Below, in pieces: positions 4,905 to 26,527 of a stretch of 32,000 nt of DNA. The stretch spans positions 600,001 to 632,000 of the forward strand of contig CP061211.1 of NCBI GenBank assembly GCA_026016245.1. The letters are read 5' to 3'. Made by a program: the position numbers and the translations under genes. The stretch is from Candidatus Pacearchaeota archaeon. Lineage in GTDB: Archaea; Nanobdellota; Nanobdellia; Pacearchaeales; UBA284. Below the pieces are notes generated by a model. It had not been told where the DNA came from and searched no databases. It saw nothing but the letters and a program-made list of their open reading frames with translations. The stretch's first letter is position 1. The number at the start of each line of letters is the position of its first letter.

Positions 4905-4906
4905 TA

Positions 4907-5348: not shown

Positions 5349-5396
5349 CTTAGCAATACTCTGGCTGGGGGCTGAGCTAATTATTAGATTTTGAAG

Positions 5397-6791
5397 ATGA
5401 ATTTAGTTAGTAGTATTGAAAAAAACATAAAAAGAGCTTCTGAGAAATTCAAAAAGATTTTTCCTAAAGAAGGCATTATTAGAATTGTGACCCATCTTGA
5501 TACAGATGGTTTGACTTCTGCTGCTATTTTAACTATGGTATTGATTAAAAATGGCCAGGAGTTTTGGATTACTATAGTAAAGCAGCTTGAGGAATCTATT
5601 TTTGAAAATTTGAAGCAGGAGGCATCAAAACAAAAATGGAAGGCTTTATTATTTTTGGATCTTGGTTCAGGTAATTTAGGGGAGATTAAAAAAATAACTA
5701 AAGAACCTATTTTTATAATAGACCATCACGAGATTGAGGCTTCTTTTGAGAGTTATATTGAAGAGGAGAATTTTTATTTCATTAATCCTTTGAGTGAAAA
5801 AATAAGTGCTGCTGGCTTATGTTATTTATTTGCTAAAGGTCTTGGCAGCGAGAAGAAACTTGCGCAATTTGCTGTTCTTGGGATGATAGGAGATATCCTT
5901 GACAAATCAATTGGTAAATTAAATAATCTCATATTGAACGATGCTAAAGATAGTGGAATGAAGGTTAAAAGAGGGCTTACAGTTTTTTCAGCAATGAGAC
6001 CTTTACATAAGGCACTTGAATTCAGTTCTAGTGTTTACATACCTGGTGTGACAGGAAATTTTAATGGTTCTCTTGGAATGCTGAGAGAGATAGGTATTAA
6101 CGCTAAAAAAGCAAGAAGGTGGAGGACTTTAATGGACTTGAATGACGAAGAGGTTTCAAGACTTATTACTGCCATACTTGTAAGGAGAGTTAATGATGGA
6201 AGAGGGCAGGATATTATTGACAATATTTATTTGATAAAAATAGCAAATCAGATATGGGATGCCAGAGAAGTTAGTACTATGCTGAATGCTTGTGGTAGAT
6301 TAAATTATGGTGGTTTAGCTTTATCTTTCCTTCTTGGTTCCAGAGAGGCTAGAGAGGAGGTAGAGAATGTTTACAGCCAGTACAAGCATCTCATTATTAA
6401 AGCCCTGAATTGGATAGAGGGGGCGAAAAAAATTCAAGGAAGTAATTATATTATTGTTAATGCAAGATCAAACATAAAAGACACGATTATAGGGACTGCC
6501 ATGTCTATTCTTTCATCTTCTTTTATTTATTCTAAAGGAACTATCTTAATTGGAATGGCATACAGACCTGACAGCAAGATTAAGATTTCTGCGAGAATTG
6601 TTAGGGATGGTGAAAAAAAATGTGATGTTAATCTAAACAAAATTTTGAGTCCTGTTATTAAAGCCATTGGAGGAGAAGTTGGAGGACATCCAAGGGCTGC
6701 AGGCGCCCTTATTTCTCAAGATAAGGAAAAGGTTTTTCTTGAATTAATAGAAAAAGAAATGAATGCTCATGAACTGAGCATTAAGATTTAA
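5397..6791 (+). CDS. RecJ-like DHH-family phosphoesterase (archaeal RecJ/Cdc45-GAN type)
   Basis: DHH motifs THLDTDGLTSAAIL, IIDHHE and GMIGD, plus the DHHA1 motif GGHPRAAG. The rps15-recJ adjacency is a known archaeal neighbourhood. The ORF track offers an alternative TTG start at 5391. Confidence 0.85.
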   Translation: MNLVSSIEKNIKRASEKFKKIFPKEGIIRIVTHLDTDGLTSAAILTMVLIKNGQEFWITIVKQLEESIFENLKQEASKQKWKALLFLDLGSGNLGEIKKITKEPIFIIDHHEIEASFESYIEEENFYFINPLSEKISAAGLCYLFAKGLGSEKKLAQFAVLGMIGDILDKSIGKLNNLILNDAKDSGMKVKRGLTVFSAMRPLHKALEFSSSVYIPGVTGNFNGSLGMLREIGINAKKARRWRTLMDLNDEEVSRLITAILVRRVNDGRGQDIIDNIYLIKIANQIWDAREVSTMLNACGRLNYGGLALSFLLGSREAREEVENVYSQYKHLIIKALNWIEGAKKIQGSNYIIVNARSNIKDTIIGTAMSILSSSFIYSKGTILIGMAYRPDSKIKISARIVRDGEKKCDVNLNKILSPVIKAIGGEVGGHPRAAGALISQDKEKVFLELIEKEMNAHELSIKI

Positions 6792-14194: not shown

Positions 14195-14280
14195 AAAAGA
14201 CCTTGAGTGTGGATAATATAAAAATCTTGCGTTCCATGATTTTAGAAAAACTTTAAAAAAACCAAATCCTTCTAAAATTG

Positions 14281-17200
14281 ATGTTAAAAGAGGATAATAG
14301 TAAAATCAACAAAGTAACTGCAATAATTTTTTTTATTGTGTTAATTGGACTAGTCTTTTTTATGTTCTTCATAAAACCTGTAATCACTGCAAAAGCCATA
14401 GCTTTAGAAAAAGAATTTTTTATGCCAAATGAAAAAATCAAAGGGAATTTTACTCTGATTTTAAAAGAGGGCGAACTTATCCCTTCAAATACAAAAATTC
14501 TTATAGAATTGGATGGACAGCAACAAAGAGAGCTCACTATCAAGGAATTTATTGAACTTAGTAATCTTGATATAGAAGAAGAGCAGGGAGGTTTTTTTAT
14601 ACCTAAGACTAGAATTTCTGGGGCTGGCTTTGGATATGGAAAAGCAGGGCATTATGTAGTTTATCCAGATGTTGATTTTCAATTAAAAATTATCTCTCCA
14701 ACAGAAGAAGAAGTAACAGAGATAGAAGAGCCAACAGAAGAAAGTACTGAAGAAAATATTACAGAACAAAACATAACTGAACAAAACATAACAGAAGAAA
14801 ATAAGACAGAAGTTCCAGAAGAAAACATCACTGAAATTAAAGAAGAACCTACAGAAGAAGCAACAGAAGCAGAAGAAGAGCCAGCAGAAGAAGAGAATTC
14901 AGGAGAAAATGAAAATCTAGAAGAAGATGTTATAAACTCATTGTCTATTTTTGCTATCTTAAATAAATTTTTCAGTTTTTGGGGGGCATTTACAATAGTT
15001 GAAGAAAGTGGCAATGTAAAAATTATAGAAGCATCTTGTTCTTTGGATGAGCCATTTTATTATGAGTTAGGAGAGGGGGAGCAAGCAGAACTTATGGAAG
15101 GAAGTGTAAGAATAGATGGAGAAATTGTTAGAGATAATAAGGTTGATATTGATATTAAGGACGATGTTTTAACTGTTTCAACAGATTATTTTGAAAGCTA
15201 TGAAGGTTTTGGTGAGGCTTATCTTGGTGATGATTATGAAATCACCCTTAATTTAAATGTTCTTGATTTAAATATTGAAAAAGAAGGAACCCATACCTTA
15301 ACTATAACTTTGGTTTATGAAGATGAAGAGTTAATGAATGCTAGTGAAGAAATTGAAGTGAAGCCAGAGAGTATAACAATTAAGATTATTGATAAAGATG
15401 GAAATATTGAAGATGAAATTTTGGCTAGTTCTACAAAAATAAAAATAAAGATTAGGAAGATTGTTGTGGGGGGAGAGGAAGAGCATGAAATTGAAATTGA
15501 AGATAATGTGATAAGTATAACTGGTGCAGCGATAATAGAAACTAAACAAGCACTGCCAGAATCTGAAATTATTTTTATTGATTTTCCAGACAACACAATT
15601 ATCCAAATAGATGAACCAACAATCGAGCAAAAAGCTAAGGGTTTTGCAACAGAGGTTTTTGCTATAGAACCAGGCTCTGAGATTGAGATTGAAACTGCAA
15701 CAATAACTCTTGAAAAATTTACAAGTGATACCATAGCTTCAATTTTATATTGTGAAGATTGGAATATTAATAATTTTAATTGTGATGGCAACTGGATGAA
15801 TTCTGGTTTAGAATTTTTAGATAATGGTACACATATAAGTTTTGAGACAGATCATTTTACTGCTTACATTGGAGCTGGAAATATGACTTGCCCTTATTTT
15901 GCAAATGACAGTGTTATTTTAGTTGAAAGTGTTGCTTGCAATGGAACAGCTTTTATTATAAACAGCAGTAATGTTGAGATAGATTGCCAAGGCCATACAA
16001 TTAATTATTCTGCCACAACCTTAGGATATGGTATTAATAATACAGCTGGTTTTGACAATGTTACAATAAAAAATTGCATAATCAAACAAACTAATTTTAG
16101 TATAGCTTATGCTTATGGAATTTATTTAAAAAATGGAATTGTAAATATTACCATACATAATAATACCATTTTAACTTATGCTTATGCAAGTTATGCTATA
16201 TATCAAACACTTCCTTACACTGGCTCAGACAATATAACTGTTACTGACAATATTGTAAATGGGGGAATAAATCTGGGATATGTACCAAATTGTACAGTTA
16301 CTGGAAATAATGTAACTAATAGTTCATTTGTGGTGGGTGGTTCAGGGGACAGCCCTTATTGCCAAATTACAGACAATAATGTTAGTGGGGGAGATGCTTA
16401 TTTTTCTGGGCCCTATCATAATATAGAAGATAATAATTTTTATGACATAGGATCTGTTATGATAGATGGGAGCCATATTTATTTTTCAGACAATTATATT
16501 TCTAGTAGTACAGATTCAGGAGATGGTACTTTAATTTTAGACTCATCAAGCATTACGAATAATACAGTATATAGCAATATAATCGTGACTTCAGGTGATG
16601 ATGATAATGATGCTGTTTATCTTGATGGTGCTAATGACACAAACTTCAGTTATAATAATATAACCACTGATTGTGTTGATTGTGATGGGATTGTGTGGGA
16701 ATATCCTAAGGTCTTCAATTTGGCTTATAATAATATAACCACTAATGGAAATAACAGTTTTGGCTTAATGCTTTCATATGCTTATAGTGATGTTAAAAAT
16801 ATAACTAATAATACAATAAAGACTTATGGGGCTAGTTCTGGGGGGATCTATTTGGAGACCACTTTAAATTATGATGGCCCTAGCAAGAATGTTTTTAGAA
16901 ATAATATAATAGAGACTGCAAAAGGAATTGCATTTAATTTTTCAGAAGATTGTAATGATCCTTATGATGGTCATCCAAGTGATATTGATACAAGCAATAC
17001 AGCTGAAGGAAAGCCAATTTATTATTATTGCAATACAACAAGCACTTTAATACAAGACCTAGATGCTGGGCAGATTCTTTTTGGTCCTGTTGCAAATGAT
17101 CCAAATATTGTTTTAGAGAATGTTTCAGCAGAAGATGGTATTTTTGTTTCTGATGGTGTCAGTAATTTGATAATAAGAGATTCTACAATAGACACATCAA

Positions 17201-20200
17201 ATCAAGAAAAAGTTGCTGGGATATATATATATTGGGGAGATAATATTAATATTTCTAATAATAATTTGATAAATAATTATTATGGTGTTTTTCTATCTGG
17301 CAGTTCTAATAATATAACCTCAAATAATATATCTAATAATGAATATGGTATTTTATTGAAGGGGAGTTCATATAGTTATATTTTATCTAATATAATGGAT
17401 TCAAATACAATCCATATTTTATTAAATTCAACTTTAGGAGGTCATATTGAGAGTTCTAACACAGTCTCCTTAAACAATCTTTCTGGAGGAGATTATGGGA
17501 TTTATTTAAGTGATGAAGAAAATAATGATTTTGAAAACAATAAGATAGAAAATACTGATTATGGAATTTATATTTATGGAACTGTTTCAGAGCAAATAGG
17601 AGCCAATGCTTTTACAAACAATAATGTAAGTAATAGTTCTGTTTATGATTTTTATTTATATTATGTAAATACTCCTGGTTTTGGAAATGATCCTGTAATT
17701 AATTTAACAACAGGAAATGTGATGTCAAGTTTTGAGGCTTGGAATATTGCCTTAAAAAATACGACAAGCCCTGCTGCTGATCCTAGTGGATATGATAATA
17801 TAAGTAAATATTTGAATATAACAAACAATTCAGCTGATTCTTGGGTATTTTTGAATATAAGTTATAATGAATCTGCTTTAGGAGATATAAATGAATCAAG
17901 TTTGGAAATATGGAAGCATAATGGCTCATGGCATAATACTACTTTTTATACAACAAGCGGGGTAAATGAAGCTAGTGATTATGTTTTTGCTAACATTACC
18001 TCTTTCAGTATTTTTGCTCCTTTTGTAAAAAGCACAGGAGGTGATATAGATTCTTGCCAAATTCTTAATGAATCAGGAACTTATACACTTAATCAATCTG
18101 TTTCATCAAGCGGAACTTGTTTCACGATAGAAAATAATAGCATAACTCTTGATTGTGATGGATATACAATAAATTATTCAGCAACAGAAAAAGGTTATGC
18201 AATAAACAACACTAATGGATTTGATAACGTGACAATAAAGAATTGTAATATAAAACAAACTTCAAGTTCTTATACACATGCTTATGCGATATACTATAAT
18301 AATAGTGTTAATAGCACAATATATAATAACATAATAACGACTTCAGGAACCTTTGGTTGGGTAATTTATCTTACTACAACCTCAAGCTTTAATATAACTA
18401 ATAATAATATAACAACTTTAGGAGGAGATGGTGATGCAGTTTATCTTTTTTCGAGCTCAAATAATAACTTAACTAATAATAATATAACAACTTTTGGGAG
18501 TGGTGGTTATGCACTTATTCTTTCCACAAACTCGAGTTTTAACAATCTAAATAATAATACAATTACAACTAATGGACCCGAGAGTTGGGGAATTCATCTT
18601 GCTTCAAACTCAAGCTTTAACACATTAATCAACAATACAATAAATGTAACGACAAACCCAGATGACAAAATAGCACTATATATTGATGGAAGCCATCATA
18701 ATGTTATAGATGGTGGTTCAATCAGTGTAACATCATCCAATAATCAATATGCTTCTGTTTTAATTACTAGAAGTGATAACAATATTATAAAGAACTCCTA
18801 TATCTTCAGCGATTCAACTTATGGTCTTAGAGTTTATTGGACCGGAACAGGTAATACAACAATATACAATACAATAATCAATTCAACATGGGGCCCTGAC
18901 ATTATATACGACAACGATGTTGGTGGCTGGACAAATCTGACTAATTGTTCTTTTAATAAAAGTGATGTTTCATTTGGCTCAGGCTCAACTGGCTTAATAA
19001 ATGTGAAATGGTATGTAGATGTCTATGTTAACAACACTTTTGGATATCCTATTTACTTAGCTCAAGTAGATTTAGTAGATACAAACGGTAATACAGAAAC
19101 AGCTATGACAAACACTTCAGGCTATACAGAAAGAGCAAATGTTACAGAATATTATCAAAATGCTACTGGAAGCTATACTTATAATAACTATACTGCAAAA
19201 GCTTCTAAGACAGGATATTATGATTCAAGCAAACAAGTTAATTTAACAACAAATGCAATCAGGGATGATAATACGCAAGTTGTTTTAACTTTAACAAAAC
19301 ACTCTGGCGGCGGAGGCGGCGGAGGAACAGGTTATTGTGGTGATAATGCTTGTGATCCAGATGAAAATTGTTATAATTGTCCTGAAGATTGTGGAGAATG
19401 TTGTGGGAATAATATATGTGAGCCATTATATGGAGAAGATTATACAAACTGCTGGAAAGACTGCTGTTATCCAGAAGGAATAGAGATGCCTGTCCTGCCA
19501 AACAGAACTTGCTGTGCAAATTTAAATCGAGGAATAATTTATGATATGGGTTGTGTTGCTAATCAGAATGACCAGTGTGAAGGATGTGAGCTTATCGGAA
19601 GTGTTGTTTGTGTAAATTGTGGTAATAATATCTGTGGTTTAGGTGAGAATTATTGTAATTGTCCTGAAGATTGTGTTGAAGCAATATTAGATTGTTCACA
19701 ACTACCTCCTTTGTTTGTAAATATTGAATGGGATTGGTGGCCAATAACTCCTCAAACAAAACTAAACTGGTATCAGATGCCCTCCCCAGATATAGAATTG
19801 TTAAGAACTGAAGTTTATAGTGCAGATAAATGTATAGGAAGTGAATGTAATTTTGTGTTAGAAGAAGTTGTTAATGCTCCGGCAAGTGAATGGTCAGCAC
19901 ATGTTTCTGAAAGACTTAAATTTTTCACAATTATAGGAAAAACAAAACTAGGCCAAGGAGAGTGTAAGCCTGAATATTATGAGCAGGGTGTTGGTAATAG
20001 CAATAAACCAGGATGGTATAATGCTTGTACTTTAGAGCTTTTAAAAGAAGAGACTTTAATGGTTGCAGAGCCAAGAGCTTATTGTTGTTATCCTGAAGCT
20101 GATAGTGAGGGTTGGTATAATGTTCAATGTGATCAGGTGAAGATACCAGAAAATTTAATAAGATATTCTGATTGTGAGGAAGGAGAGTATGCTTTATTAT

Positions 20201-20847
20201 GTGATCAGACAAGTGATATTCTTGTAAAATTCACGCAAGATCTTGTTCATAATAAACAGATTGGAAGAGGAGAACAAGGTCAGAACACTAGTGTTAATTG
20301 GATAGTTTATATGCCTTTTGAAAATATCACTAATAACACAGATTACTTGCTTAAGATTGGAGATATCGTGGATTATGTTGCTTATTGGGATGCAGAAAAA
20401 CAAAAACAATTAGGAAGTGCTAGAGGTTATAAGGCAGGAATCCCATTAATAACTACAGGTGCTTTTGAACTTGAATCAGGAAGGCCTTACTTTGTTTCTT
20501 CAAGTGAAAAAACAGATAGGATAACCTGGGTTGGAAGAATTCCTGAGCATGTTACTTTCCACTTAAAATATGTGCCTGGAACTTTTAGTGAAAATTATAT
20601 GTCCTTACCTTTAGATACTTTTTTAAAGAAAGCAGTTGATATTTGTGATGCTTTAGGTCTAGGAGATGATGGGAGTGTTGCTACTTGGGATCCAATAACA
20701 CAAAAATATGTTAACGAGGAAGCATCAAGGTGTGGGTTTATTAGAAGCCCCATTGGGGGAAATAGTGCGCTTAATTTTGATTTAAATCCTGGACAAGTTT
20801 ATGAAGTTGCAGGGTTAGAACAAGATATAACTTGGAAACAAGAATAA
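14281..20847 (+). CDS. giant (2188 aa) surface protein
   Basis: A single uninterrupted ORF. Domain order: N-terminal TM anchor, acidic sequon repeat, two parallel beta-helix (PbH1-like) cassettes, CarboxypepD_reg-like domain, Gly7 linker, Cys-rich CGxNxC modules, C-terminal globular repeats. Beta-helix rungs show the NNITxN / NxTIxNN periodicity with very many N-x-S/T sequons. The prealbumin-like segment is VDVYVNNTFGYPIYLAQVDLVDTNGNTETAMTNTSGY...KTGYY. The ORF track also allows a TTG start at 14278. Confidence 0.9.
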   Translation: MLKEDNSKINKVTAIIFFIVLIGLVFFMFFIKPVITAKAIALEKEFFMPNEKIKGNFTLILKEGELIPSNTKILIELDGQQQRELTIKEFIELSNLDIEEEQGGFFIPKTRISGAGFGYGKAGHYVVYPDVDFQLKIISPTEEEVTEIEEPTEESTEENITEQNITEQNITEENKTEVPEENITEIKEEPTEEATEAEEEPAEEENSGENENLEEDVINSLSIFAILNKFFSFWGAFTIVEESGNVKIIEASCSLDEPFYYELGEGEQAELMEGSVRIDGEIVRDNKVDIDIKDDVLTVSTDYFESYEGFGEAYLGDDYEITLNLNVLDLNIEKEGTHTLTITLVYEDEELMNASEEIEVKPESITIKIIDKDGNIEDEILASSTKIKIKIRKIVVGGEEEHEIEIEDNVISITGAAIIETKQALPESEIIFIDFPDNTIIQIDEPTIEQKAKGFATEVFAIEPGSEIEIETATITLEKFTSDTIASILYCEDWNINNFNCDGNWMNSGLEFLDNGTHISFETDHFTAYIGAGNMTCPYFANDSVILVESVACNGTAFIINSSNVEIDCQGHTINYSATTLGYGINNTAGFDNVTIKNCIIKQTNFSIAYAYGIYLKNGIVNITIHNNTILTYAYASYAIYQTLPYTGSDNITVTDNIVNGGINLGYVPNCTVTGNNVTNSSFVVGGSGDSPYCQITDNNVSGGDAYFSGPYHNIEDNNFYDIGSVMIDGSHIYFSDNYISSSTDSGDGTLILDSSSITNNTVYSNIIVTSGDDDNDAVYLDGANDTNFSYNNITTDCVDCDGIVWEYPKVFNLAYNNITTNGNNSFGLMLSYAYSDVKNITNNTIKTYGASSGGIYLETTLNYDGPSKNVFRNNIIETAKGIAFNFSEDCNDPYDGHPSDIDTSNTAEGKPIYYYCNTTSTLIQDLDAGQILFGPVANDPNIVLENVSAEDGIFVSDGVSNLIIRDSTIDTSNQEKVAGIYIYWGDNINISNNNLINNYYGVFLSGSSNNITSNNISNNEYGILLKGSSYSYILSNIMDSNTIHILLNSTLGGHIESSNTVSLNNLSGGDYGIYLSDEENNDFENNKIENTDYGIYIYGTVSEQIGANAFTNNNVSNSSVYDFYLYYVNTPGFGNDPVINLTTGNVMSSFEAWNIALKNTTSPAADPSGYDNISKYLNITNNSADSWVFLNISYNESALGDINESSLEIWKHNGSWHNTTFYTTSGVNEASDYVFANITSFSIFAPFVKSTGGDIDSCQILNESGTYTLNQSVSSSGTCFTIENNSITLDCDGYTINYSATEKGYAINNTNGFDNVTIKNCNIKQTSSSYTHAYAIYYNNSVNSTIYNNIITTSGTFGWVIYLTTTSSFNITNNNITTLGGDGDAVYLFSSSNNNLTNNNITTFGSGGYALILSTNSSFNNLNNNTITTNGPESWGIHLASNSSFNTLINNTINVTTNPDDKIALYIDGSHHNVIDGGSISVTSSNNQYASVLITRSDNNIIKNSYIFSDSTYGLRVYWTGTGNTTIYNTIINSTWGPDIIYDNDVGGWTNLTNCSFNKSDVSFGSGSTGLINVKWYVDVYVNNTFGYPIYLAQVDLVDTNGNTETAMTNTSGYTERANVTEYYQNATGSYTYNNYTAKASKTGYYDSSKQVNLTTNAIRDDNTQVVLTLTKHSGGGGGGGTGYCGDNACDPDENCYNCPEDCGECCGNNICEPLYGEDYTNCWKDCCYPEGIEMPVLPNRTCCANLNRGIIYDMGCVANQNDQCEGCELIGSVVCVNCGNNICGLGENYCNCPEDCVEAILDCSQLPPLFVNIEWDWWPITPQTKLNWYQMPSPDIELLRTEVYSADKCIGSECNFVLEEVVNAPASEWSAHVSERLKFFTIIGKTKLGQGECKPEYYEQGVGNSNKPGWYNACTLELLKEETLMVAEPRAYCCYPEADSEGWYNVQCDQVKIPENLIRYSDCEEGEYALLCDQTSDILVKFTQDLVHNKQIGRGEQGQNTSVNWIVYMPFENITNNTDYLLKIGDIVDYVAYWDAEKQKQLGSARGYKAGIPLITTGAFELESGRPYFVSSSEKTDRITWVGRIPEHVTFHLKYVPGTFSENYMSLPLDTFLKKAVDICDALGLGDDGSVATWDPITQKYVNEEASRCGFIRSPIGGNSALNFDLNPGQVYEVAGLEQDITWKQE
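14749..14835 (+). repeat. in-frame acidic sequon repeat (EENITEQNITEQNITEENKTEVPEENITE)
   Basis: Imperfect 15-nt units (ACAGAACAAAACATA / ACTGAACAAAACATA / ACAGAAGAAAATAAG) are visible at 14761-14805. Confidence 0.7.
19306..19326 (+). repeat. GGC/GGA run encoding Gly7 linker
   Basis: ggcggcggaggcggcggagga is a GC-only 21-mer inside an AT-rich gene. It separates the prealbumin-like domain from the Cys-rich modules. Confidence 0.8.
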
Positions 20848-21711
20848 TTAATGAATAATCTTTATTGATTTCATAATTGTTTTTTCTGAATCTTCTGGTT
20901 TAAATTTCACAAAATAATGTCCTTGTGGCAAGTCCCCGGTATAAACTTTATTTCCCTTTACTTCTTTTACTTGACTTCCAATCATATTATAAATATTAAT
21001 TTTCCCAGATTGATTTAAATAGAAAAATTCATTAGCAGGATTTGGTCTAACATTTAACTTATCAACTTTTACTTTTTTTTCTAAATTTTCTTTTATACTT
21101 ACAGTATCAAGATTAAAACTTGCTAAAGTGTCAGCATCAAGGAATCTATGTTGAACTTCTCCTTTTGTAATTCCATATTTTCCTGGTGCTGCAGCTTCAA
21201 TAACTACGGTGTCTTCATCAACTAATCCTAAAGTAGAAGCATCGAAATAAATTTCATATGCCCAACTTGAAGAAGTTATATCAAATCTTCCATAAAGAGT
21301 ATCTAAACCATCTTGTTTGAAACATTTTGCATCAACACTATCTATTCCGCCATCAGTAACATCTCTCACTGAAATTCCATAACCGCCAACAAATGCTGTT
21401 GGTTGTAAAGTAAAATTTCCTCTACAAAACCATTTTAAATAAGAAGTATCTGAAGGGGCATCAAACCTAACTAATCCACTATCTCCAGGAGAAACTCCCC
21501 ATGCGTCTGGAACTGTCTTTACCCAGTAATTGGGAACAATCTGTCCAACCATTGTTTTTGCACTATCTAAACTATTAGGTTTGAAAAAAGTAACATTAGC
21601 GCTATCAGGGTAAGCCCACCCATCAAAGTTAGGTAAAGCATCAGCCAACTTAGGCAAGAGAAAAGTAACTCCAGCTAAGAATAATGTTAATAAAGTGCTT
21701 TTTAATCCCAT
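20848..21711 (-). CDS. secreted protein with T9SS type-A (Por_Secre_tail-like) C-terminal sorting domain
   Basis: N-terminal signal peptide MGLKSTLLTLFLAGVTFLLPKLADA. The C-terminal 70 aa, NVRPNPANEFFYLNQSGKINIYNMIGSQVKEVKGNKVYTGDLPQGHYFVKFKPEDSEKTIMKSIKIIH, fits the PNPa...i.iyd..G..v......idls.L..G.Yfvk...kl.k pattern. Confidence 0.75.
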   Translation of the reverse strand: MGLKSTLLTLFLAGVTFLLPKLADALPNFDGWAYPDSANVTFFKPNSLDSAKTMVGQIVPNYWVKTVPDAWGVSPGDSGLVRFDAPSDTSYLKWFCRGNFTLQPTAFVGGYGISVRDVTDGGIDSVDAKCFKQDGLDTLYGRFDITSSSWAYEIYFDASTLGLVDEDTVVIEAAAPGKYGITKGEVQHRFLDADTLASFNLDTVSIKENLEKKVKVDKLNVRPNPANEFFYLNQSGKINIYNMIGSQVKEVKGNKVYTGDLPQGHYFVKFKPEDSEKTIMKSIKIIH

Positions 21712-21786
21712 GTTTTTTTCAGGCCAATATGATATTTAAAGCTTTTGGTTTTACTACTTTTTAGGGGTTTCTTTTAGATATCTACG

Positions 21787-21799
21787 AAAAATATTTATA
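21787..21799 (+). promoter_or_regulatory. TATA-box-like element upstream of the Cys-repeat peptide gene
   Basis: AAAAATATTTATA ends 15 nt before the ATG at 21815. This implies a very short or absent leader, and M3 or M5 could be the true start. Confidence 0.35.
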
Positions 21800-21814
21800 C
21801 CATGTAAGCTTATA

Positions 21815-22030
21815 ATGAAAATGGCTATGGAGAAAAAAACCCTTTTAGAAACAGAAAAAGAAAAAGCTTCACTAATTGGAAAAATAGATAATAAGATGGC
21901 TTTTGATAATGAACATTGCAGTTGTCAATGTGCCTGTGATTGTGTTTGTATATGTGATTGTGATACATATGATTCCTTAAAACAAAATAAAGAAAAAGCT
22001 CTTGAAAAAAATTATTGGAAATATTCTTAA
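21815..22030 (+). CDS. candidate RiPP precursor peptide (71 aa) with core CSCQCACDCVCICDC
   Basis: MKMAMEKKTLLETEKEKASLIGKIDNKMAFDNEH-CSCQCACDCVCICDC-DTYDSLKQNKEKALEKNYWKYS. It sits 25 nt upstream of a radical SAM/SPASM gene on the same strand. The eight Cys codons are interleaved with seven intervening codons, six of them distinct (only GAT recurs). Confidence 0.6.
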   Translation: MKMAMEKKTLLETEKEKASLIGKIDNKMAFDNEHCSCQCACDCVCICDCDTYDSLKQNKEKALEKNYWKYS

Positions 22031-22055
22031 TTGAGGGTAAGGGGGGAGATTTAAA

Positions 22056-23459
22056 ATGAAATTTAAATTATTTAGAAATCTCTATTTTAAAAAAGTTAAT
22101 TCTGATTATTGGGGAGTTTATCATCCATTTAATGAATATAAAATAATTTTTATTTCCTCTGATTTAAAAGCTGAACTTAAAAAATTCCAAAATTCTGGAG
22201 AAATATTGGAAAATAATCCTTTTAAGAACGAATTAGAAAAATTAAAAAAAGAATATTTTTTAGTTCCAGAATTATTTAATCATACAAAACCTATACAAAC
22301 TATTAGAGAAGGATTACCAAAAAAACCAAGTATAGGATTATTATATCTTCTTTTAACAGATTCATGTAATTTAAATTGTAGTTATTGTGCTATTGAAGAA
22401 AATTTAGAGAGTCTTTGTAAAAATTCTAAATTAAGAGCAAAGAACATGAGTATAAAAACTTGTGATAATGCAATTGATTTTTATGTTATGTGTAAAGATG
22501 ATAAATTACCAGAACATCGTGTGATATTTTATGGAGGAGAACCATTATTAAATGAAAAAGTTTTTAGACATGCTGTTTCTAGATTGAGAAGTGAAGAAAA
22601 AAAAGGAAATTTAAAAAATTTGGGGATGGTCATGAATACTAATGCAACAAAAGTAAATGAAGAAATTGCAGAATTCTTTGCTAAAAATAAAATAAGCCCA
22701 GCAGTCTCATTAGATGGTTATAAAGAAATTCATGATTCTCAGAGAAAAAACTTAAGAGGAAAAGGAAGTTACGATGAAACTATAAGAGGATATAAATTAT
22801 TTCAAAAGCATGGTATTCAACCGGGAATATCCTGTACAATTACAAAAAATAATATTGGAAAACTAGAAGAAATCGCAGAATTTTTTGTTGATAATCTTAA
22901 TCCAAATGGAATTGGTTTTAATCTTTTACTTGATTTTAAAGATAAAATTAATCCTTTAGCAGTTTCTGTTAAAAAAGCAACTAAAGCAATGTTAAAAAGT
23001 TTTGAATTTTTAAGAGAAAAAGGTGTTTTTGAAGAAAGAGTTATGAGGCGTCTTGGAAAAATAATTAAAAAAGAAATGCATCTAAAAGATTGTGCTGGTT
23101 ATGGTAGACAAGTTGTTGTTGCACCTGATGGAAGAATCGGTCCATGTCAGATAGCAATGGCTGCAGATTATCCTTCACCAGGAAATGTCAATGATTCTAA
23201 AATGTTTGATCCCAATGATAATGAATTGTTCTTAGAATGGAATAAAAGAACAGCATTCAATATGTCTCAGTGTGAAGATTGCAGTTTTATAACAATCTGT
23301 GGAGGAGGATGTGCATATCAGTCTTATATAAAAACAGGAAATATATGGCAAGTTGATAAAAGAATATGTGAACATTGTAAGGAATTAATAGATTGGGTTA
23401 TTGATGATTTATGGAAAACTAAACAAAAAAATATTCAATATGAGACCAGATTGGGATAA
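22056..23459 (+). CDS. radical SAM enzyme with C-terminal SPASM domain and ~95-aa N-terminal extension (peptide-maturase architecture)
   Basis: CX3CX2C cluster motif CNLNCSYC (22365-22388) and GGE motif FYGGEPLL. SPASM motifs are CAGYGRQVVVAPDGRIGPC (CX12GX4C) and CEDCSFITICGGGC (CX2CX5CX3C), followed by CEHC. A G-rich SD (GGGGGGAG) lies upstream. Confidence 0.9.
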   Translation: MKFKLFRNLYFKKVNSDYWGVYHPFNEYKIIFISSDLKAELKKFQNSGEILENNPFKNELEKLKKEYFLVPELFNHTKPIQTIREGLPKKPSIGLLYLLLTDSCNLNCSYCAIEENLESLCKNSKLRAKNMSIKTCDNAIDFYVMCKDDKLPEHRVIFYGGEPLLNEKVFRHAVSRLRSEEKKGNLKNLGMVMNTNATKVNEEIAEFFAKNKISPAVSLDGYKEIHDSQRKNLRGKGSYDETIRGYKLFQKHGIQPGISCTITKNNIGKLEEIAEFFVDNLNPNGIGFNLLLDFKDKINPLAVSVKKATKAMLKSFEFLREKGVFEERVMRRLGKIIKKEMHLKDCAGYGRQVVVAPDGRIGPCQIAMAADYPSPGNVNDSKMFDPNDNELFLEWNKRTAFNMSQCEDCSFITICGGGCAYQSYIKTGNIWQVDKRICEHCKELIDWVIDDLWKTKQKNIQYETRLG

Positions 23460-24033
23460 AGTTTATAAGAAAGGCCCCCATTGGGAAAGAAAACATTCTA
23501 AAGCAATAGAAGATTTTGTTAGATATTTAGAAAAAAGAGACAAAGTTCTTGATCTTGGCTGTGGGTCGGGCCGCGATGTTGTTTTTCTTGCTAGGAATGG
23601 ATTTGATGTTTATGGAATAGATATCTCTAAAGAAGCAATTAAAAAAGCAAGAAATAAAATTAAAGAAAAAGGTTTGAAAGCTTATTTTGATGTAGGAGAT
23701 TTAACTGCCTTGAAATTTGAAAACAATTTTTTTGATGCTATTTATTCTAATGCTGTTTTAAATTTCACACTACTTCAAGAAAGTTGTTCTGAAATCTATA
23801 GAATATTGAAAAAAGATGGCTTAGCATATCTTATATTTCTTTTAGATTACATTCCTTTATTTAATGATGGTAAGAATAAAGAGGATCATTCGTTTTATCC
23901 AGAAGATTTGATTTTACAAACTTATAAAAATTCAAAATTCAATATAATCTATAGCAAGAAATTCCTTTCACTAGATCTTGGGGGAGAAAAACCACATAAA
24001 CATAATATTTTGAACTTGCTTTTAAAAAAATGA
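23440..24033 (+). CDS. class I SAM-dependent methyltransferase
   Basis: Motif I VLDLGCGSGRDVVFLARNGFDVYGIDIS, then post-I/II motifs (DVGDL; FDAIYSNAVLNF; LKKDGLAYL). The ATG at 23440 overlaps the rSAM 3' end by 20 nt. The ORF-track TTG at 23401 is less likely. Confidence 0.85.
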   Translation: MRPDWDKVYKKGPHWERKHSKAIEDFVRYLEKRDKVLDLGCGSGRDVVFLARNGFDVYGIDISKEAIKKARNKIKEKGLKAYFDVGDLTALKFENNFFDAIYSNAVLNFTLLQESCSEIYRILKKDGLAYLIFLLDYIPLFNDGKNKEDHSFYPEDLILQTYKNSKFNIIYSKKFLSLDLGGEKPHKHNILNLLLKK

Positions 24034-24794
24034 GGGGATTGCCGAAAATAGAATTTAAATTAGCATCTTTTAAATATAATTATCAAATTCTAAATTATTT
24101 TGTTTTTCATAAATCTCCAAAAATTAGAAAAAGAATTCTGAATGTTTATCCTGAATTAAGAAAAATTTATTCTATCAAAAAAAATACAGAAAGAGATAAA
24201 TTTATTAGAGAATTTTGTAAGAGACAATCATCAAAAAATTCTAAAGCAATAATGAAGAAAAAAGAAATTATCGATAAAGAATGGAGGAAAATACATACAC
24301 CATTTATGAAGGCATTGAGCAAAGTTTTAGAAATAAAATGGCCCAACACAAAGATAATAGGTTATCTTTCAATAGTTCCAGTTTATCCTAGACATCTCAA
24401 TAATTGGAGTTTTTCTTTTTATTATAAAGAAAATACTAAAGGCATTATTGCTGTAATAGCACACGAAATATCCCATTTTTTATATTTCAAAAAATTCAAA
24501 GAACTTTTTCCAAAAATCAATAAGAGAAGGTATGATATTCCTTATATAGAATGGTATCTTAGTGAAATGCTTGCTCCAATAATTTTAGCACATCCAAAAA
24601 TCAAAAAAATAATTGGAAAGCGAATACAAAGAGGTTATATTTTGAGAAAAAGAGAAAAATTATTATATAGAAAACTTCTTTTACTTTATAAAGATAGTTT
24701 GAAAAATAGAGAACCTTTTTCAGAATTCTTAAAGAAAACTTATAGATTAGTCAAAAGAATAAATAGAGGCTTTGTGGTTAAAGGCTTCCCATAA
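24030..24794 (+). CDS. hypothetical protein with HExxH motif (possible Zn metallopeptidase)
   Basis: AVIAHEISHFLYF (HEISH at 24462-24476), with a downstream E (IEWYLSEMLAP) as a possible third ligand. ATGA overlap with the methyltransferase stop. No family was recognised by eye. Confidence 0.5.
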   Translation: MRGLPKIEFKLASFKYNYQILNYFVFHKSPKIRKRILNVYPELRKIYSIKKNTERDKFIREFCKRQSSKNSKAIMKKKEIIDKEWRKIHTPFMKALSKVLEIKWPNTKIIGYLSIVPVYPRHLNNWSFSFYYKENTKGIIAVIAHEISHFLYFKKFKELFPKINKRRYDIPYIEWYLSEMLAPIILAHPKIKKIIGKRIQRGYILRKREKLLYRKLLLLYKDSLKNREPFSEFLKKTYRLVKRINRGFVVKGFP

Positions 24795-24840
24795 ATTTTC
24801 TTCTCAAAACCTTTTTAAATCCACTAAGCATATAATAATA

Positions 24841-25272
24841 ATGGCAAAAAAGAGGAAAGCAAAAAGAAAGAAAGTTAAAACTAGAAGAAAAGTTAGAAGA
24901 GTGAAAACTAGGGCAAGGGCAAAAAGAGTGGCAGTAACAAAAGCACCTACAACAGTGCAATCAGCTTACACACTTTGTGTTGCAGGCGGAATAATTGTAT
25001 TGATAGCTGGAGTTCTTGCTTTGTTTTTCAGCAGTGTATTTGCATTGACACAGATAGCAGGAACCCTTATTGACCATATAATTAGTTTGATATGTGGTGC
25101 TGTGTTGTTGATTACAGCATCATCAATTAAGAAAAGTCCAAAAAGCGCAGCAATTATAACTTTATTGTTTGGAGTTATTGCATTGATCTTTCCACCACAC
25201 GGATTTATTGTTGGTCCAATCTTATCTTTGATAGGATCAGTAATATTGCTAGTAAGAAGAAGATTAGAATAG
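24841..25272 (+). CDS. small membrane protein: ~35-aa Arg/Lys-rich N-terminus followed by 3-4 TM helices
   Basis: MAKKRKAKRKKVKTRRKVRRVKTRARAKR... is followed by hydrophobic segments (GGIIVLIAGVLALFF; LICGAVLLITA; IITLLFGVIALIF; ILSLIGSVILLV). The ATG at 24841 is preferred over the TTG-type start at 24772. Confidence 0.6.
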   Translation: MAKKRKAKRKKVKTRRKVRRVKTRARAKRVAVTKAPTTVQSAYTLCVAGGIIVLIAGVLALFFSSVFALTQIAGTLIDHIISLICGAVLLITASSIKKSPKSAAIITLLFGVIALIFPPHGFIVGPILSLIGSVILLVRRRLE

Positions 25273-25281: not shown

Positions 25282-26421
25282 TTATTTCAGGAATTTAATT
25301 ATTTCAGGAATTCTTAGAAGTTTTTCTTTTCCTGTTTTCATATTTCTTAGTTTAATTTTTCCTTTTTTGATCTCTTCTGCTCCTATGAAAATTACAAAAG
25401 GAATTTTTTGTTTATTTGCATAATCCAGAGCTTTAGAAATTTTATCCATAATAAAACAAGATATATTTCTTTTCCTTAACTGTTCTGCAATTTTAATTGC
25501 TTCTTTCTCTTGTTTGATTGAAATAATAAGACATTTGATATTTTCAACTTTTATTTTTGTTATAGTACTTAATCTTTCTAGACCAAAAGAAATTCCTGTG
25601 CTTTGGATTCCATTGATAATATAAGAACCTCCCCCACCTATGCTTTCCTTAATCTTTTTCACTTTTATTTCAAAGACACTTCCGTTATAATAAGCCAAGC
25701 CGCGAGCAAGACTAGATAAGAATTTAACTTTTACGCCATAATTTTTGCAATATCTCTCTAACTCTTGAATTTCTTTGTATGCCTTATATTTCTTAAAGAA
25801 AGATTCAGGTTTTTTGAATAAAGTAAGGAGATTTTCTGCTTTGTATTTTTTCAGATTTTTCCTTACTTCTTGTTCTGAGAGCTTGTCTAATTTGTCTATT
25901 TCCTTAATAACCTGTTCTTTTTTCTTTATTCCTTCTTTTTCCAAAATTTCATTTATTAATTTTCTATTGTTTATGTAGATTTCAGTATCTATTTCCAATT
26001 CTTTTAGAATTTCTGAGAATAATTTAAGAATTTCAGCTTCATCTTTAGTTGTTGAGCCTATTACATCAACATCACACTGAGTAAATTCCCTAAATCTAGC
26101 TTTTGATACTGGTTCATCCCTAAAAACTTCCCCGATTTGATATCTTCTATAAGGTAATTTTTTGTTTTTCGCCAGTCTTTTAAGCTGGAATGTTAATTCA
26201 TATCTTAAAGCCAGCTTTCTTTTTCCCTTATCTTGAAGCTTGAAAATATCACTTATGATTTCATCTTCTCCTGCTTTTACAAATTTTTCATACTCAATAA
26301 CTGGAGTTTCAGCTGGAAGAAAGCCATAGGATTTGAATTTTTTTATTATGATTTCCTTGATTGCTTGTCTTTTCAGAGCTTCTTCTTCTGAAAAATCACG
26401 AAAGCCTTTTACTGTTTCCAT
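25282..26421 (-). CDS. hisS: histidyl-tRNA synthetase
   Basis: Class II motifs: VKGFRDF, LRYELTFQLKR, YQIGEVFRDE..RFREFTQCDVDVIG, GGGGSY. The C-terminal anticodon-binding domain is IPFVIFIGAEEIKKGKIKLRNM. Confidence 0.9.
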   Translation of the reverse strand: METVKGFRDFSEEEALKRQAIKEIIIKKFKSYGFLPAETPVIEYEKFVKAGEDEIISDIFKLQDKGKRKLALRYELTFQLKRLAKNKKLPYRRYQIGEVFRDEPVSKARFREFTQCDVDVIGSTTKDEAEILKLFSEILKELEIDTEIYINNRKLINEILEKEGIKKKEQVIKEIDKLDKLSEQEVRKNLKKYKAENLLTLFKKPESFFKKYKAYKEIQELERYCKNYGVKVKFLSSLARGLAYYNGSVFEIKVKKIKESIGGGGSYIINGIQSTGISFGLERLSTITKIKVENIKCLIISIKQEKEAIKIAEQLRKRNISCFIMDKISKALDYANKQKIPFVIFIGAEEIKKGKIKLRNMKTGKEKLLRIPEIIKFLK

Positions 26422-26454
26422 TTTATTTTTTACTTACCTCCTTTTTGCTTGGAG

Positions 26455-26527
26455 GGTGGTAGCTGGGAATCGGACCCAGACCACTCGGGCCACAGCCGAG
26501 CATACAGACCACTATACGACTACCACC
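26455..26527 (-). tRNA. tRNA-His (anticodon GUG) with genomically encoded G-1
   Basis: The reverse complement is G-GTGGTAG..CTCGG-CTGTGGC-CCGAG..CTGGG-TCCGATT-CCCAG-CTACCAC-C. The extra 5' G lies opposite discriminator C73, as expected for tRNA-His. No CCA is encoded. Its 3' end is 33 nt upstream of hisS. Confidence 0.85.

What the first reader, a model, noticed from the sequence alone, without database searches (positions are those of the whole stretch)
21787..25272. Compact five-gene cluster resembling an undescribed archaeal RiPP system (Cys-repeat peptide + rSAM/SPASM + methyltransferase + HExxH protein + membrane protein)
Five same-strand genes sit with tiny gaps or overlaps. The peptide-to-rSAM gap is 25 nt, rSAM and MTase overlap by 20 nt, and MTase and the HExxH gene share an ATGA overlap. 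This implies one transcription unit. Its composition matches radical-SAM-dependent RiPP clusters: a short Cys-rich substrate candidate, a SPASM maturase with an N-terminal extension, a tailoring methyltransferase, and a possible leader peptidase. It also includes a membrane protein that could serve in export or immunity. The cluster lies among housekeeping genes of what looks like a reduced archaeal genome, where secondary-metabolite-like loci are unexpected. I do not recognise the Cys-X alternating core as any named rSAM peptide family (SCIFF, CXXX-repeat, Cys-every-fifth, sacti-/ranthipeptides).
Basis: partly seen in the sequence, partly recalled or inferred. Interest (0 to 1): 0.9.

Follow-up and report, generated by a model that had tools for sequence, protein, structure and literature searches.

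The report
Cysteine-repeat peptide maturation cluster, DPANN archaeon
A tiny archaeon carries a compact gene set that very probably makes a chemically modified, cysteine-rich small peptide. It is a divergent relative of a widespread family that has a database name (FibroRumin), for which I found no published experimental study, so the chemistry and the role of the product are unknown.

Summary
The RiPP reading holds. All rSAM/SPASM homologs at 45-50% identity whose context I read carry an upstream peptide ending in HCSCQCAC[DE]C[VI]CIC(DCD). Cys-dense peptides sit beside most homologs down to about 30% identity in DPANN archaea, CPR bacteria, Bacteroides and Firmicutes.

Three corrections are needed:
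- **Not fully undescribed.** It is a divergent outlier of NCBIfam's FibroRumin system. The rSAM scores 198 bits against TIGR04136 (cut-off 400) and the peptide misses TIGR04135. Relatives that pass the cut-offs share the same leader motif (h-x-G-K/N-h, 8-13 residues before the core).
- **The conserved module is three genes.** These are the peptide, the rSAM and the 254-aa HExxH…E protein. That protein belongs to a family with no Pfam or NCBIfam model and about 960 cluster representatives. It also occurs beside an ATP-grasp RiPP enzyme. The methyltransferase is one of several interchangeable tailoring modules; relatives have it fused or adjacent to the rSAM.
- **The membrane gene is probably unrelated.** It has its own TATA-like box, a different GC content and no homolog in the 167 loci tested.

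Thioether cross-linking is the likeliest chemistry but is only inferred.

The parts
21785..21799 (+). Putative archaeal BRE/TATA promoter (cgaaaaatatttata). It sits about 22-26 nt upstream of ATG 21821, which would give a leaderless or near-leaderless transcript.
   Evidence: Read directly from the sequence. Inferred from general knowledge of archaeal promoter spacing; not tested.
21815..22030 (+). Precursor peptide, 71 aa (69 aa if it starts at ATG 21821, as in the NCBI annotation IB618_03740).
   Evidence: ORF. Homologs P0283-P0285, L001, L004 and L006 lie directly upstream of rSAM homologs. pN is well below pS.
21872..21889 (+). Leader recognition motif LIGKID (residues 20-25).
   Evidence: The motif h-x-G-[KN..]-h is present in 29 of 40 family precursors against 6.7% of shuffled leaders. 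It lies a near-constant 8-13 residues before the first core Cys.
21914..21964 (+). Core HCSCQCACDCVCICDCD: 8 Cys in strict C-X alternation. The follower tail 21965-22027 is poorly conserved.
   Evidence: Alignment of the close clade. Cys codons vary TGT/TGC between relatives.
22041..22048 (+). Shine-Dalgarno-like GGGGGGAG, 7 nt before the rSAM ATG.
   Evidence: Read from the sequence.
22056..23459 (+). Radical SAM/SPASM peptide maturase, 467 aa. Residues 1 to about 90 form an N-terminal CteB-like (RRE-type) domain.
   Evidence: Pfam Radical_SAM. Best NCBIfam hit is TIGR04136 at 198 bits, below the cut-off of 400. AF2 model has pLDDT 92. Full-length Foldseek match to CteB 5WHY/5WGG, E=2e-20.
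22365..22388 (+). CX3CX2C radical-SAM cluster motif (C104, C108, C111).
   Evidence: Invariant in 24 homologs.
23091..23369 (+). SPASM region with seven conserved Cys (346, 364, 406, 409, 415, 419, 438), enough for two auxiliary [4Fe-4S] clusters.
   Evidence: Six Cys invariant and C438 at least 90% conserved in alignment A1. The Pfam SPASM match is weak: 17.3 bits against a gathering score of 21.5.
23440..24033 (+). Class I SAM-dependent methyltransferase, 197 aa from ATG 23440 (the longest ORF starts at TTG 23401). Lineage-specific tailoring enzyme.
   Evidence: Pfam Methyltransf_25/11/31, E about 1e-22. It overlaps both neighbouring genes. Relatives have methyltransferases fused (P0118/L174) or directly adjacent (L052, L074, L010).
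24030..24794 (+). 254-aa HExxH…E protein with a zincin-like active-site arrangement; putative leader peptidase. No Pfam or NCBIfam family.
   Evidence: Found in about 30 loci, adjacent to the rSAM and on its strand in all but two. 959 cluster-50 representatives. AF2 model has pLDDT 89.9. Foldseek hits are weak (E>1) and mostly Zn-metallopeptidases.
24462..24476 (+). HEISH motif (H145, E146, H149). The putative third ligand is E179, at 24564-24566.
   Evidence: H145 conserved in 27/31, E146 in 29/31, H149 in 26/31 and E179 in 29/31 distinct family members. All are invariant in A2. The motif and E179 sit in separate helices, 136-159 and 173-186.
24841..25272 (+). Adjacent 143-aa membrane protein with a polybasic N-terminus and 3-4 hydrophobic spans. 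Probably NOT part of the system.
   Evidence: No homolog in the 167 loci of rSAM homologs tested. GC is 35.6% against 26.8% for the cluster. It has its own TATA-like tttttaaa at 24812-24819. Pfam hits are all below threshold.

Best explanation
Genes 21815-24794 form a four-gene RiPP-type operon. It is a divergent DPANN-archaeal branch of the superfamily whose named corner is NCBIfam's FibroRumin system.

Proposed pathway:
1. The 71-aa precursor is bound through its leader motif (LIGKID, 10 residues before the core) by the N-terminal CteB-like domain of the rSAM/SPASM enzyme.
2. The enzyme uses its radical-SAM cluster and two auxiliary clusters to act on the cysteines of the core HCSCQCACDCVCICDCD. 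The most likely reaction is formation of several intramolecular thioether (sactionine- or ranthionine-type) cross-links.
3. The class I methyltransferase adds a lineage-specific methylation.
4. The cytoplasmic HExxH…E protein removes the leader.

**Shown:** gene order and overlaps; the conserved peptide + rSAM + HExxH trio; the shared leader motif; the cluster-binding cysteines; the fold.

**Inferred:** the type of cross-link, the methylation target, the protease activity, and the biological role (antimicrobial, signal or metal binding). No conserved exporter or immunity gene was seen in the loci whose gene tables I read.
For: **Precursor and rSAM.**
- Every rSAM homolog at 45-50% identity whose context I read (L001-L007, plus the L172 locus reached from the peptide side) has the conserved precursor immediately upstream.
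- Adjacent Cys-dense ORFs are strongly enriched: 4/4 and 25/45 loci against a 1.5% background.
- The leader motif is at a fixed distance from the core in 29/40 precursors, including true FibroRumin-type peptides.
- The rSAM has CX3CX2C plus seven conserved SPASM Cys.
- Its best family models are peptide maturases: FibroRumin 198 bits, PapB 160, DynA 138.
- Its model superposes full-length on the thioether synthase CteB, E=2e-20.
- Minimal cores in relatives (…STCACGCSCW in L012, …SVCACGCSC in L099) contain only Cys plus small residues between the cysteines and little or no tail. The chemistry must therefore centre on Cys within the run.

**HExxH protein.**
- It lies next to the rSAM, on the same strand in all but two cases, in about 30 loci.
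- The HExxH and downstream Glu are conserved.
- One family member sits in an ATP-grasp (graspetide-type) locus, L171. This fits a general RiPP accessory such as a leader peptidase.
- Makarova et al. 2022 report zincin peptidases, SPASM enzymes and UbiE-like methyltransferases in CPR graspetide loci (PMC8939145).

**Methyltransferase.**
- It is fused to the rSAM in P0118, whose locus L174 has a CxC-repeat precursor.
- Other relatives fuse HAD or GNAT domains in the same place.
Against: - No chemistry was tested.
- The enzyme and the peptide both fail the curated FibroRumin cut-offs, and I found no published experimental study of that family.
- The core lacks the CX3[DE] ranthipeptide motif. With Cys at every second position, the acceptor residues are unclear.
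- The HExxH protein has no significant sequence or structure match to any peptidase.
- In the closest rSAM relatives (L001, L172, L090) the first His of the motif is replaced: AEE[IL]xHLH.
- One close HExxH homolog, P0124/L168, has no RiPP neighbour.
- The methyltransferase is absent from the closest relatives.
- No exporter or immunity gene is conserved in the loci whose gene tables I read.
Confidence: 0.6

Rival explanations
1. Same gene set, different chemistry and role. The product is an intracellular thiolate-rich metal- or cluster-binding peptide, or a redox peptide (metallothionein- or chalkophore-like). The rSAM would perform a non-cross-linking reaction, such as epimerisation of the alternating residues or Cys C-beta oxidation as anSME does, rather than building thioether rings.
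For: - C-X alternation puts all the thiols on one face of an extended strand.
- anSME, a Cys C-beta oxidase, is the best PDB sequence hit (E=3e-23) and a top structural hit.
- No exporter or immunity gene is conserved in the loci whose gene tables I read, and the hosts have reduced genomes.
- The residues between the Cys vary freely across the superfamily.
- The methyltransferase's nearest models methylate soft nucleophiles (TehB, ArsM, TPMT).
Against: - Family-model scores favour cross-linking peptide maturases over anSME (198, 160 and 138 bits against 127).
- The full-length fold match, including the leader-binding domain, is to CteB.
- The known SPASM epimerases did not rank among the top hits.
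- A leader peptide plus a dedicated HExxH partner is typical of RiPP logic.
Confidence: 0.2
2. The HExxH…E protein is not the leader peptidase. It is a non-catalytic scaffold or chaperone, or a different hydrolase, that works with the rSAM.
For: - The motif is degenerate in the closest rSAM relatives (AEEIFHLH in L001, AEELLHLH in L172) and in L088, L092 and L018 (HELLISH).
- No significant peptidase match was found.
- L168 has a homolog without RiPP genes.
- P0274 pairs the domain with a separate Peptidase_MA_2 domain.
Against: - H, E, H and the downstream E are conserved in 26-29 of 31 members and lie on two helices next to a beta-sheet, as in zincins.
- The weak fold hits are mostly Zn-metallopeptidases, including the lanthipeptide protease EryP.
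- The variant motifs keep potential metal ligands (E/H).
Confidence: 0.3
3. All five genes, including the membrane protein, form one functional unit, with the membrane protein acting as exporter or immunity factor.
For: The gene is on the same strand, lies 46 nt after (or overlaps) the HExxH gene, and is followed by a convergent hisS gene.
Against: - No homolog in the 167 loci tested.
- GC of 35.6% against 26.8% for the other four genes.
- Its own TATA-like box about 25 nt upstream of its ATG.
- No transporter domain.
Confidence: 0.1
4. The small ORF is a chance ORF over a TGTNNN simple repeat, and the rSAM is a cofactor or sulfatase maturase.
For: TRF detects a weak 6-nt repeat at 21935-21964 (score 37). 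anSME is the best PDB sequence hit.
Against: - The leader and core are conserved at protein level across saturated synonymous divergence.
- The ORF keeps its position next to rSAM homologs.
- anSME and QhpD scores are far below their cut-offs.
- The peptide has no C/S-x-P-x-R sulfatase motif.
Confidence: 0.02

Closest known systems
FibroRumin system (NCBIfam TIGR04135 Cys-rich RiPP precursor + TIGR04136 radical SAM maturase). It is defined by family models; I found no paper that names it.
   Same: - TIGR04136 is the best-scoring model for the rSAM and covers almost its full length (residues 57-454 against model positions 55-455).
- The architecture is the same: a Cys-rich precursor directly upstream of an rSAM/SPASM enzyme.
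- The leader motif (h-x-G-x-h about 10 residues before the core) and CxC-rich cores occur in true members: L021, L056, L116 and L013.
- L013, a true member at 403 bits, also carries the HExxH partner.
   Different: - The rSAM scores 198 bits against a cut-off of 400, and the peptide gives no TIGR04135 hit at all.
- The core is a longer, strictly alternating run of 8 Cys with a 21-residue follower tail.
- A methyltransferase is inserted in the operon.
- The host is a DPANN archaeon.
CteB / SCIFF maturase (PDB 5WGG, 5WHY), a thioether-forming rSAM/SPASM enzyme with an N-terminal RRE-like domain
   Same: It is the best structural match over the whole length, including the N-terminal domain (E=2e-20, TM 0.70-0.78). 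It has two auxiliary clusters and a Cys-rich substrate.
   Different: About 20% identity. The SCIFF maturase model TIGR03974 scores 117 bits against a cut-off of 425. The precursor is unrelated to SCIFF.
PapB-family ranthipeptide maturases (NF047865)
   Same: Second-best family model at 160 bits. Multiple thioethers are formed in a repetitive Cys core.
   Different: Below the cut-off of 340. PapB substrates use CX3[DE] motifs, which this core lacks.
Anaerobic sulfatase-maturating enzyme anSME (PDB 4K36-4K39)
   Same: Best PDB sequence hit (E=3e-23). It acts on a Cys in a peptide and has a SPASM domain with two auxiliary clusters.
   Different: TIGR03942 scores 127 bits against 349. anSME lacks the N-terminal leader-binding domain, since the alignment starts at residue 91. 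No sulfatase or sulfatase motif is nearby.
Zincin/gluzincin metallopeptidases, including the RiPP protease EryP and the zincins noted in CPR graspetide loci (Makarova et al. 2022, PMC8939145)
   Same: HExxH on one helix, a conserved Glu about 30 residues later on the next helix, and a preceding beta-sheet. The protein is associated with RiPP loci of two classes, rSAM and ATP-grasp.
   Different: No significant sequence or fold match to any peptidase family. The motif is degenerate in some members. Activity is untested.

Membership tests
FibroRumin system (TIGR04135/TIGR04136) | Maturase scores at or above the curated cut-off (400 bits) of TIGR04136 | tested here: not met
   198.3 bits. Relatives L116 (504), L021 (457) and L013 (403) pass. 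L027 (324), L008 (244), L001 (228) and L015 (179) do not.
FibroRumin system (TIGR04135/TIGR04136) | Precursor scores at or above the curated cut-off (45 bits) of TIGR04135 | tested here: not met
   No hit at E<=0.1 for the window peptide, and none for its close homologs L001 and L004 at E<=10. The L021 peptide scores 59.7 bits.
FibroRumin system (TIGR04135/TIGR04136) | Cys-rich precursor encoded next to the rSAM maturase, with a shared leader architecture | tested here: met
   25-nt gap, same strand. The leader motif h-x-G-x-h lies 8-13 residues before the core and is shared with the FibroRumin-type peptides L021a/b and L056.
Radical SAM/SPASM RiPP maturase (general) | CX3CX2C motif plus a seven-Cys SPASM region for two auxiliary clusters | tested here: met
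   C104/108/111 and C346, 364, 406, 409, 415 and 419 invariant, C438 at least 90% conserved, in 24 homologs.
Radical SAM/SPASM RiPP maturase (general) | N-terminal leader-binding (RRE-type) domain | tested here: inconclusive
   The AF2 model shows a beta-sheet plus helices at residues 1-90, and the full-length alignment to CteB includes its N-terminal domain. No PqqD/RRE Pfam hit was found. Binding was not tested.
Ranthipeptide (PapB family, NF047865) | Maturase above the 340-bit cut-off, and CX3[DE] repeats in the core | tested here: not met
   159.8 bits. No Cys lies four residues before any Asp in HCSCQCACDCVCICDCD (read from the sequence).
SCIFF (TIGR03974 maturase) | Maturase above the 425-bit cut-off | tested here: not met
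   117.1 bits.
CXXX-repeat (TIGR04115) and Cys-every-fifth (NF038107) systems | Maturase above the cut-off (350 / 600 bits) and matching Cys spacing | tested here: not met
   73.5 and 79 bits. The Cys spacing here is every second residue.
Anaerobic sulfatase maturase (TIGR03942) | Score above 349 bits, and a sulfatase substrate with C/S-x-P-x-R | tested here: not met
   127.1 bits. No such motif in the peptide, and no sulfatase among the neighbours scanned.
Zincin (gluzincin-type) metallopeptidase, for the 254-aa protein | HExxH on a helix plus a downstream Glu ligand on a second helix | tested here: met
   H145, E146, H149 and E179 are conserved and lie in helices 136-159 and 173-186.
Zincin (gluzincin-type) metallopeptidase, for the 254-aa protein | Significant sequence or fold similarity to a known peptidase family | tested here: not met
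   Pfam and NCBIfam give only sub-threshold SprT-like hits. The PDB profile search found 0 hits. The best Foldseek hit has E=1.2.
Zincin (gluzincin-type) metallopeptidase, for the 254-aa protein | Zinc-dependent peptide bond hydrolysis | not testable with these tools
   Needs biochemistry.

The most novel reading that the evidence does not exclude
The peptide + rSAM + HExxH trio may define a large RiPP class, for which I found no published characterisation, that is well represented in the ultra-small episymbionts (DPANN archaea and CPR bacteria). Its rSAM may install a cross-link pattern not seen before on a strictly alternating Cys-X core. One possibility is a contiguous ladder of very small thioether rings within the run, since minimal cores such as CACGCSC leave no distant acceptor residues. 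Its HExxH…E partner may be a new family of RiPP leader peptidases shared between rSAM and ATP-grasp pathways. The product could mediate symbiont-host or symbiont-competitor interaction.
Probability: 0.25. Interest if true: 0.75.

Novelty: new variant of a known kind. Interest (0 to 1): 0.5.

Why it matters
I found no published characterisation of any member of this Cys-repeat/rSAM superfamily, including the named FibroRumin corner, although it spans Bacteroides, Firmicutes, Proteobacteria, CPR bacteria and DPANN archaea. Only two archaeal RiPPs, both haloarchaeal lanthipeptides, had been validated before the 2025 survey that states this (PMC12144867).

This locus offers a compact four-gene test case of about 3 kb for three questions:
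- What does an rSAM/SPASM enzyme do to a C-X-C-X-C core?
- Is the unannotated HExxH…E family (about 960 cluster representatives) a new RiPP leader peptidase?
- Why do genome-reduced episymbionts keep such systems?

It is not a new kind of system. The logic of precursor, SPASM maturase and tailoring enzymes is standard.

Tried and rejected
- **Apparent rSAM-HExxH fusion in L042.** Rejected. The rSAM ORF (3518-5116) and the long ORF (3763-5898) are in different frames, and the HExxH domain starts at about 5182, after the rSAM stop. The long ORF is probably a chance upstream extension of the HExxH reading frame.
- **Literature.** A full-text search for 'FibroRumin' found 0 papers. I tried one PMC identifier from memory for the 2011 Haft and Basu paper, and nothing is held under it. 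Searches combining ranthipeptide, SPASM, Cys-rich, DPANN and CPR terms found only general surveys.
- **Promoter and terminator scan.** The bacterial sigma-70 scan found fewer promoter-like sites than in shuffles. It is uninformative for an archaeon.
- **Peptide word search.** It found only 4 proteins, probably because such small ORFs are often not called in metagenomes. The six-frame scan of loci was far more productive.
- **dN/dS.** Synonymous sites are saturated, so only pN well below pS can be stated, not a precise ratio.
- **Methyltransferase orthology.** Methyltransferases near relatives' rSAMs are only distantly similar (25% identity to P0118). This is recurrent recruitment, not conserved orthology.

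Full report
**Observation**

The five + strand ORFs are present as described.
- Peptide: 21815-22030, 71 aa.
- rSAM: 22056-23459, 467 aa.
- Methyltransferase: from ATG 23440 (the longest ORF starts at TTG 23401) to 24033.
- HExxH protein: 24030-24794.
- Hydrophobic ORF: ends at 25272.

There is a 25-nt gap holding a GGGGGGAG Shine-Dalgarno-like run, a 20-nt overlap and an ATGA overlap. A TATA-like aatatttata lies at 21790-21799, about 25 nt before ATG 21821. NCBI's annotation starts the peptide there, giving 69 aa. The rSAM is 100% identical to a protein of a Candidatus Pacearchaeota MAG on a 710-kb contig. Neighbours include hisS beside tRNA-His, a 2189-aa beta-helix surface protein and several unannotated ORFs.

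**What the enzymes are**

The 467-aa protein has the Radical_SAM domain. It has an invariant CX3CX2C (C104/108/111) and seven conserved SPASM cysteines. Against NCBIfam it passes no curated cut-off.

| Model | Bits | Cut-off |
|---|---|---|
| TIGR04136, FibroRumin system radical SAM peptide maturase (nearly full length) | 198 | 400 |
| PapB | 160 | 340 |
| DynA | 138 | 450 |
| QhpD | 130 | 453 |
| anSME | 127 | 349 |

By these curated cut-offs it belongs to no sulfatase or cofactor family; I built no tree. Its AF2 model (pLDDT 92) aligns over its full length with the thioether synthase CteB, E=2e-20. That alignment includes the N-terminal beta-sheet/helix domain at residues 1-90. The next hits are TigE, anSME, ChlB and SuiB.

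The methyltransferase is a generic class I enzyme. The 254-aa protein has no Pfam, NCBIfam or PDB sequence match.

**The peptide is real and conserved**

Every rSAM homolog at 45-50% identity whose context I read has a small ORF directly upstream. These include P0003, P0005 (Woesearchaeota) and P0008. The ORF carries the pattern GL-x-GK[IV]D, then 10-11 residues, then HCSCQCAC[DE]C[VI]CIC(DCD). A peptide search added P0283-P0285 with the same pattern, and P0285 again lies before an rSAM. Between these loci the synonymous sites are saturated (pS 0.63-0.80), while pN is 0.18-0.45. Cys codons switch between TGT and TGC. The weak 6-nt DNA repeat in the core is therefore a consequence of the coding sequence and not an artefact.

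**How far the association extends**

I fetched 160 loci of rSAM homologs from reference genomes and metagenomes. Together with the seven loci from the first context look-ups, I scanned all six frames of the 167.

| rSAM score (bits) | Loci with an adjacent same-strand Cys-dense small ORF |
|---|---|
| above 400 | 4 of 4 |
| 190-400 | 25 of 45 |
| 120-190 | 18 of 40 |
| below 120 | 12 of 73 |

The background is 1.5% of small ORFs elsewhere in the same loci. The 25/45 figure is a lower bound, because several contigs are truncated.

The hosts include DPANN archaea, many CPR/Patescibacteria, Bdellovibrionales, Desulfoscipio, Bacteroides and Bacilli. Cores range from minimal (…STCACGCSCW, …SVCACGCSC) to 14 Cys.

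A leader motif, h-x-G-[K/N…]-h, occurs in 29 of 40 precursors against 6.7% of shuffled leaders. It lies 8-13 residues before the first core Cys.

**Relation to the named family**

One relative's peptide (L021, Proteobacteria) passes TIGR04135, 'FibroRumin family radical SAM-modified Cys-rich RiPP', at 59.7 bits against a cut-off of 45. The rSAMs of L116 (504 bits), L021 (457) and L013 (403) pass TIGR04136. L027 (324), L008 (244), L001 (228), the window (198) and L015 (179) fall off gradually.

The window's system is thus a divergent outlier of a continuum whose centre is the FibroRumin system. It shares that system's leader architecture and Cys-rich cores. Through L013 it also shares the HExxH partner. 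I found no paper that mentions FibroRumin. A 2025 survey lists antiSMASH-predicted rSAM RiPP clusters in DPANN and says that only two archaeal RiPPs, both haloarchaeal lanthipeptides, had been validated before it (PMC12144867).

**The HExxH protein**

An iterative search of all ORFs in the loci finds this family in about 30 loci. It lies next to the rSAM, on the same strand in all but two. Conservation among 31 distinct members is H145 in 27, E146 in 29, H149 in 26 and E179 in 29, plus W175 and Y203.

The AF2 model (pLDDT 89.9) puts HExxH on helix 136-159 and E179 on helix 173-186, after a small beta-sheet. This is a zincin-like layout. Foldseek gives only weak hits (E>1). Most are zinc metallopeptidases: M61, the M1 enzymes IRAP and ERAP, anthrax lethal factor, IrrE/PprI, and the lanthipeptide protease EryP. 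A profile search finds 959 cluster-50 representatives.

Contexts of close homologs vary.
- Two are in peptide + rSAM loci with a different core, CGG(G)SC[VI]GGNC.
- One is beside an ATP-grasp MvdD-type ligase and a 49-aa ORF in Parcubacteria.
- One has no RiPP neighbour.

Association with two RiPP classes fits a general accessory such as a leader peptidase. Makarova et al. 2022 note zincins, SPASM enzymes and UbiE-like methyltransferases in CPR graspetide loci. Two cautions apply. The motif is altered in the closest rSAM relatives (AEE[IL]xHLH). No activity has been shown.

**Accessory genes**

The methyltransferase is absent from the closest relatives. However, P0118 is an rSAM-methyltransferase fusion. 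Its locus carries a CxC-repeat precursor (…VAGKVI…ACDCICYCNCDC…CDCSVCNCDCNC). Directly adjacent methyltransferases occur in L052, L074 and L010. Other DPANN relatives fuse HAD (L015, L026) or GNAT (L032) domains to the rSAM C-terminus. Tailoring is modular, and the window's methyltransferase, which overlaps both neighbours, is very probably part of the pathway.

The membrane protein is a different matter.
- It has no homolog in the 167 loci tested.
- Its GC is 35.6% against 26.8% for the four-gene block, which is the lowest 3-kb window in the 32 kb (mean 32.3%, sd 2.1).
- It has its own TATA-like box about 25 nt before ATG 24841.
- It has no transporter domain.

I do not count it as part of the system. 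The low GC, the lack of flank synteny and the transposases beside relatives (IS240-type in L001, Y1 in L006) suggest the block moves horizontally.

**Mechanism**

*Shown:* the gene set, the conserved trio, the leader motif at a fixed distance, the cluster ligands and the CteB-like fold.

*Inferred:* the leader is bound by the N-terminal domain. The rSAM acts on the cysteines. Minimal cores contain only Cys plus small residues between the cysteines, and little or no tail, so aromatic cross-links and distant acceptors are excluded and the chemistry must lie within the run. The most likely reaction is multiple thioether formation, by analogy with CteB, PapB and QhpD (about 0.35-0.4). The HExxH protein removes the leader (about 0.5-0.6), and the methyltransferase adds a methyl group to an unknown site. 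No conserved exporter or immunity gene turned up in the loci whose gene tables I read, so a cytoplasmic or metal-binding role remains open (rival, 0.2).

**Verdict**

It is a RiPP-type cluster, but with four genes rather than five.
- It is a divergent variant of the FibroRumin-type Cys-rich peptide systems, not a wholly undescribed kind.
- It is not unexpected in DPANN or CPR organisms.
- Interest is moderate. The logic is standard, but I found no published characterisation of any member of this superfamily or of the HExxH…E family.

Noticed in passing
window 20848-21711 (- strand): A 287-aa protein next to the cluster ends in a Por_Secre_tail domain, the type IX secretion C-terminal sorting domain (32.4 bits against a gathering score of 27, E=1e-7). 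To my knowledge that sorting signal is characteristic of Bacteroidota, so it is odd in a Pacearchaeota genome.
   Followed up: no
window 14278-20847 (+ strand): A giant 2189-aa protein with NosD and right-handed beta-helix repeats and a Cys-rich C-terminal region (CGDNACDPDENCYNCPEDCGECCGNN…). It is probably a surface or adhesion protein of the episymbiont.
   Followed up: no
L015 205-2112; L026 3977-5893; L032 3932-5710; L174 1098-3368: DPANN relatives of the rSAM carry different C-terminal fusions: HAD hydrolase (Micrarchaeia L015, Woesearchaeota L026), GNAT acetyltransferase (Micrarchaeota L032) and a class I methyltransferase (P0118/L174). Each sits next to a Cys-dense precursor.
   Followed up: partly
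L171 4001-6252: A 37%-identical homolog of the HExxH protein in a Parcubacteria contig lies beside a 49-aa ORF and an ATP-grasp MvdD-type ligase. This links the family to a second RiPP class.
   Followed up: partly
L168 2987-6086: A 40%-identical HExxH homolog (P0124) sits in a same-strand run of DNA-repair-like genes (HhH-GPD, LigD_N, HD, AP endonuclease), with no rSAM or peptide within 4 kb. This does not fit the leader-peptidase idea and is unexplained.
   Followed up: no
P0274 (488 aa); L175 934-1614: P0274 joins the HExxH-family domain (residues 2-248) to a separate Peptidase_MA_2 domain (residues 361-455). In L175 the closest HExxH homolog is followed by a second, unrelated 226-aa protein with its own HEYIH motif.
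   Followed up: no
L001 5390-6076; L172 4185-4910; L090 1698-2402: In the relatives whose rSAM and peptide are closest to the window, the partner protein has AEE[IL]xHLHYW instead of AHExxHFLYF: the first His becomes Glu and an extra His appears two residues after the second. L088, L092 and L018 have HELLISH.
   Followed up: partly
window 21815-24794 against the rest; L001 6112-7026; L006 3004-3429: The four-gene block has the lowest GC of any 3-kb window in the 32 kb (26.8% against 32.8%). Relatives have unrelated flanks and nearby transposases (DDE_Tnp_IS240, Y1_Tnp). This hints at horizontal mobility between CPR and DPANN genomes.
   Followed up: partly
window 25282-26526 (- strand): tRNA-His (GTG) at 26454-26526 lies immediately upstream of the histidyl-tRNA synthetase gene (25282-26421) on the same strand.
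   Followed up: no
L169 4788-4952; L170 2399-2557: A second precursor type occurs with the same rSAM/HExxH pairing. Its core is …CGG(G)SC[VI]GGNCK… with only 3 Cys and no C-X alternation, so the partner proteins are not tied to the CxC core.
   Followed up: partly
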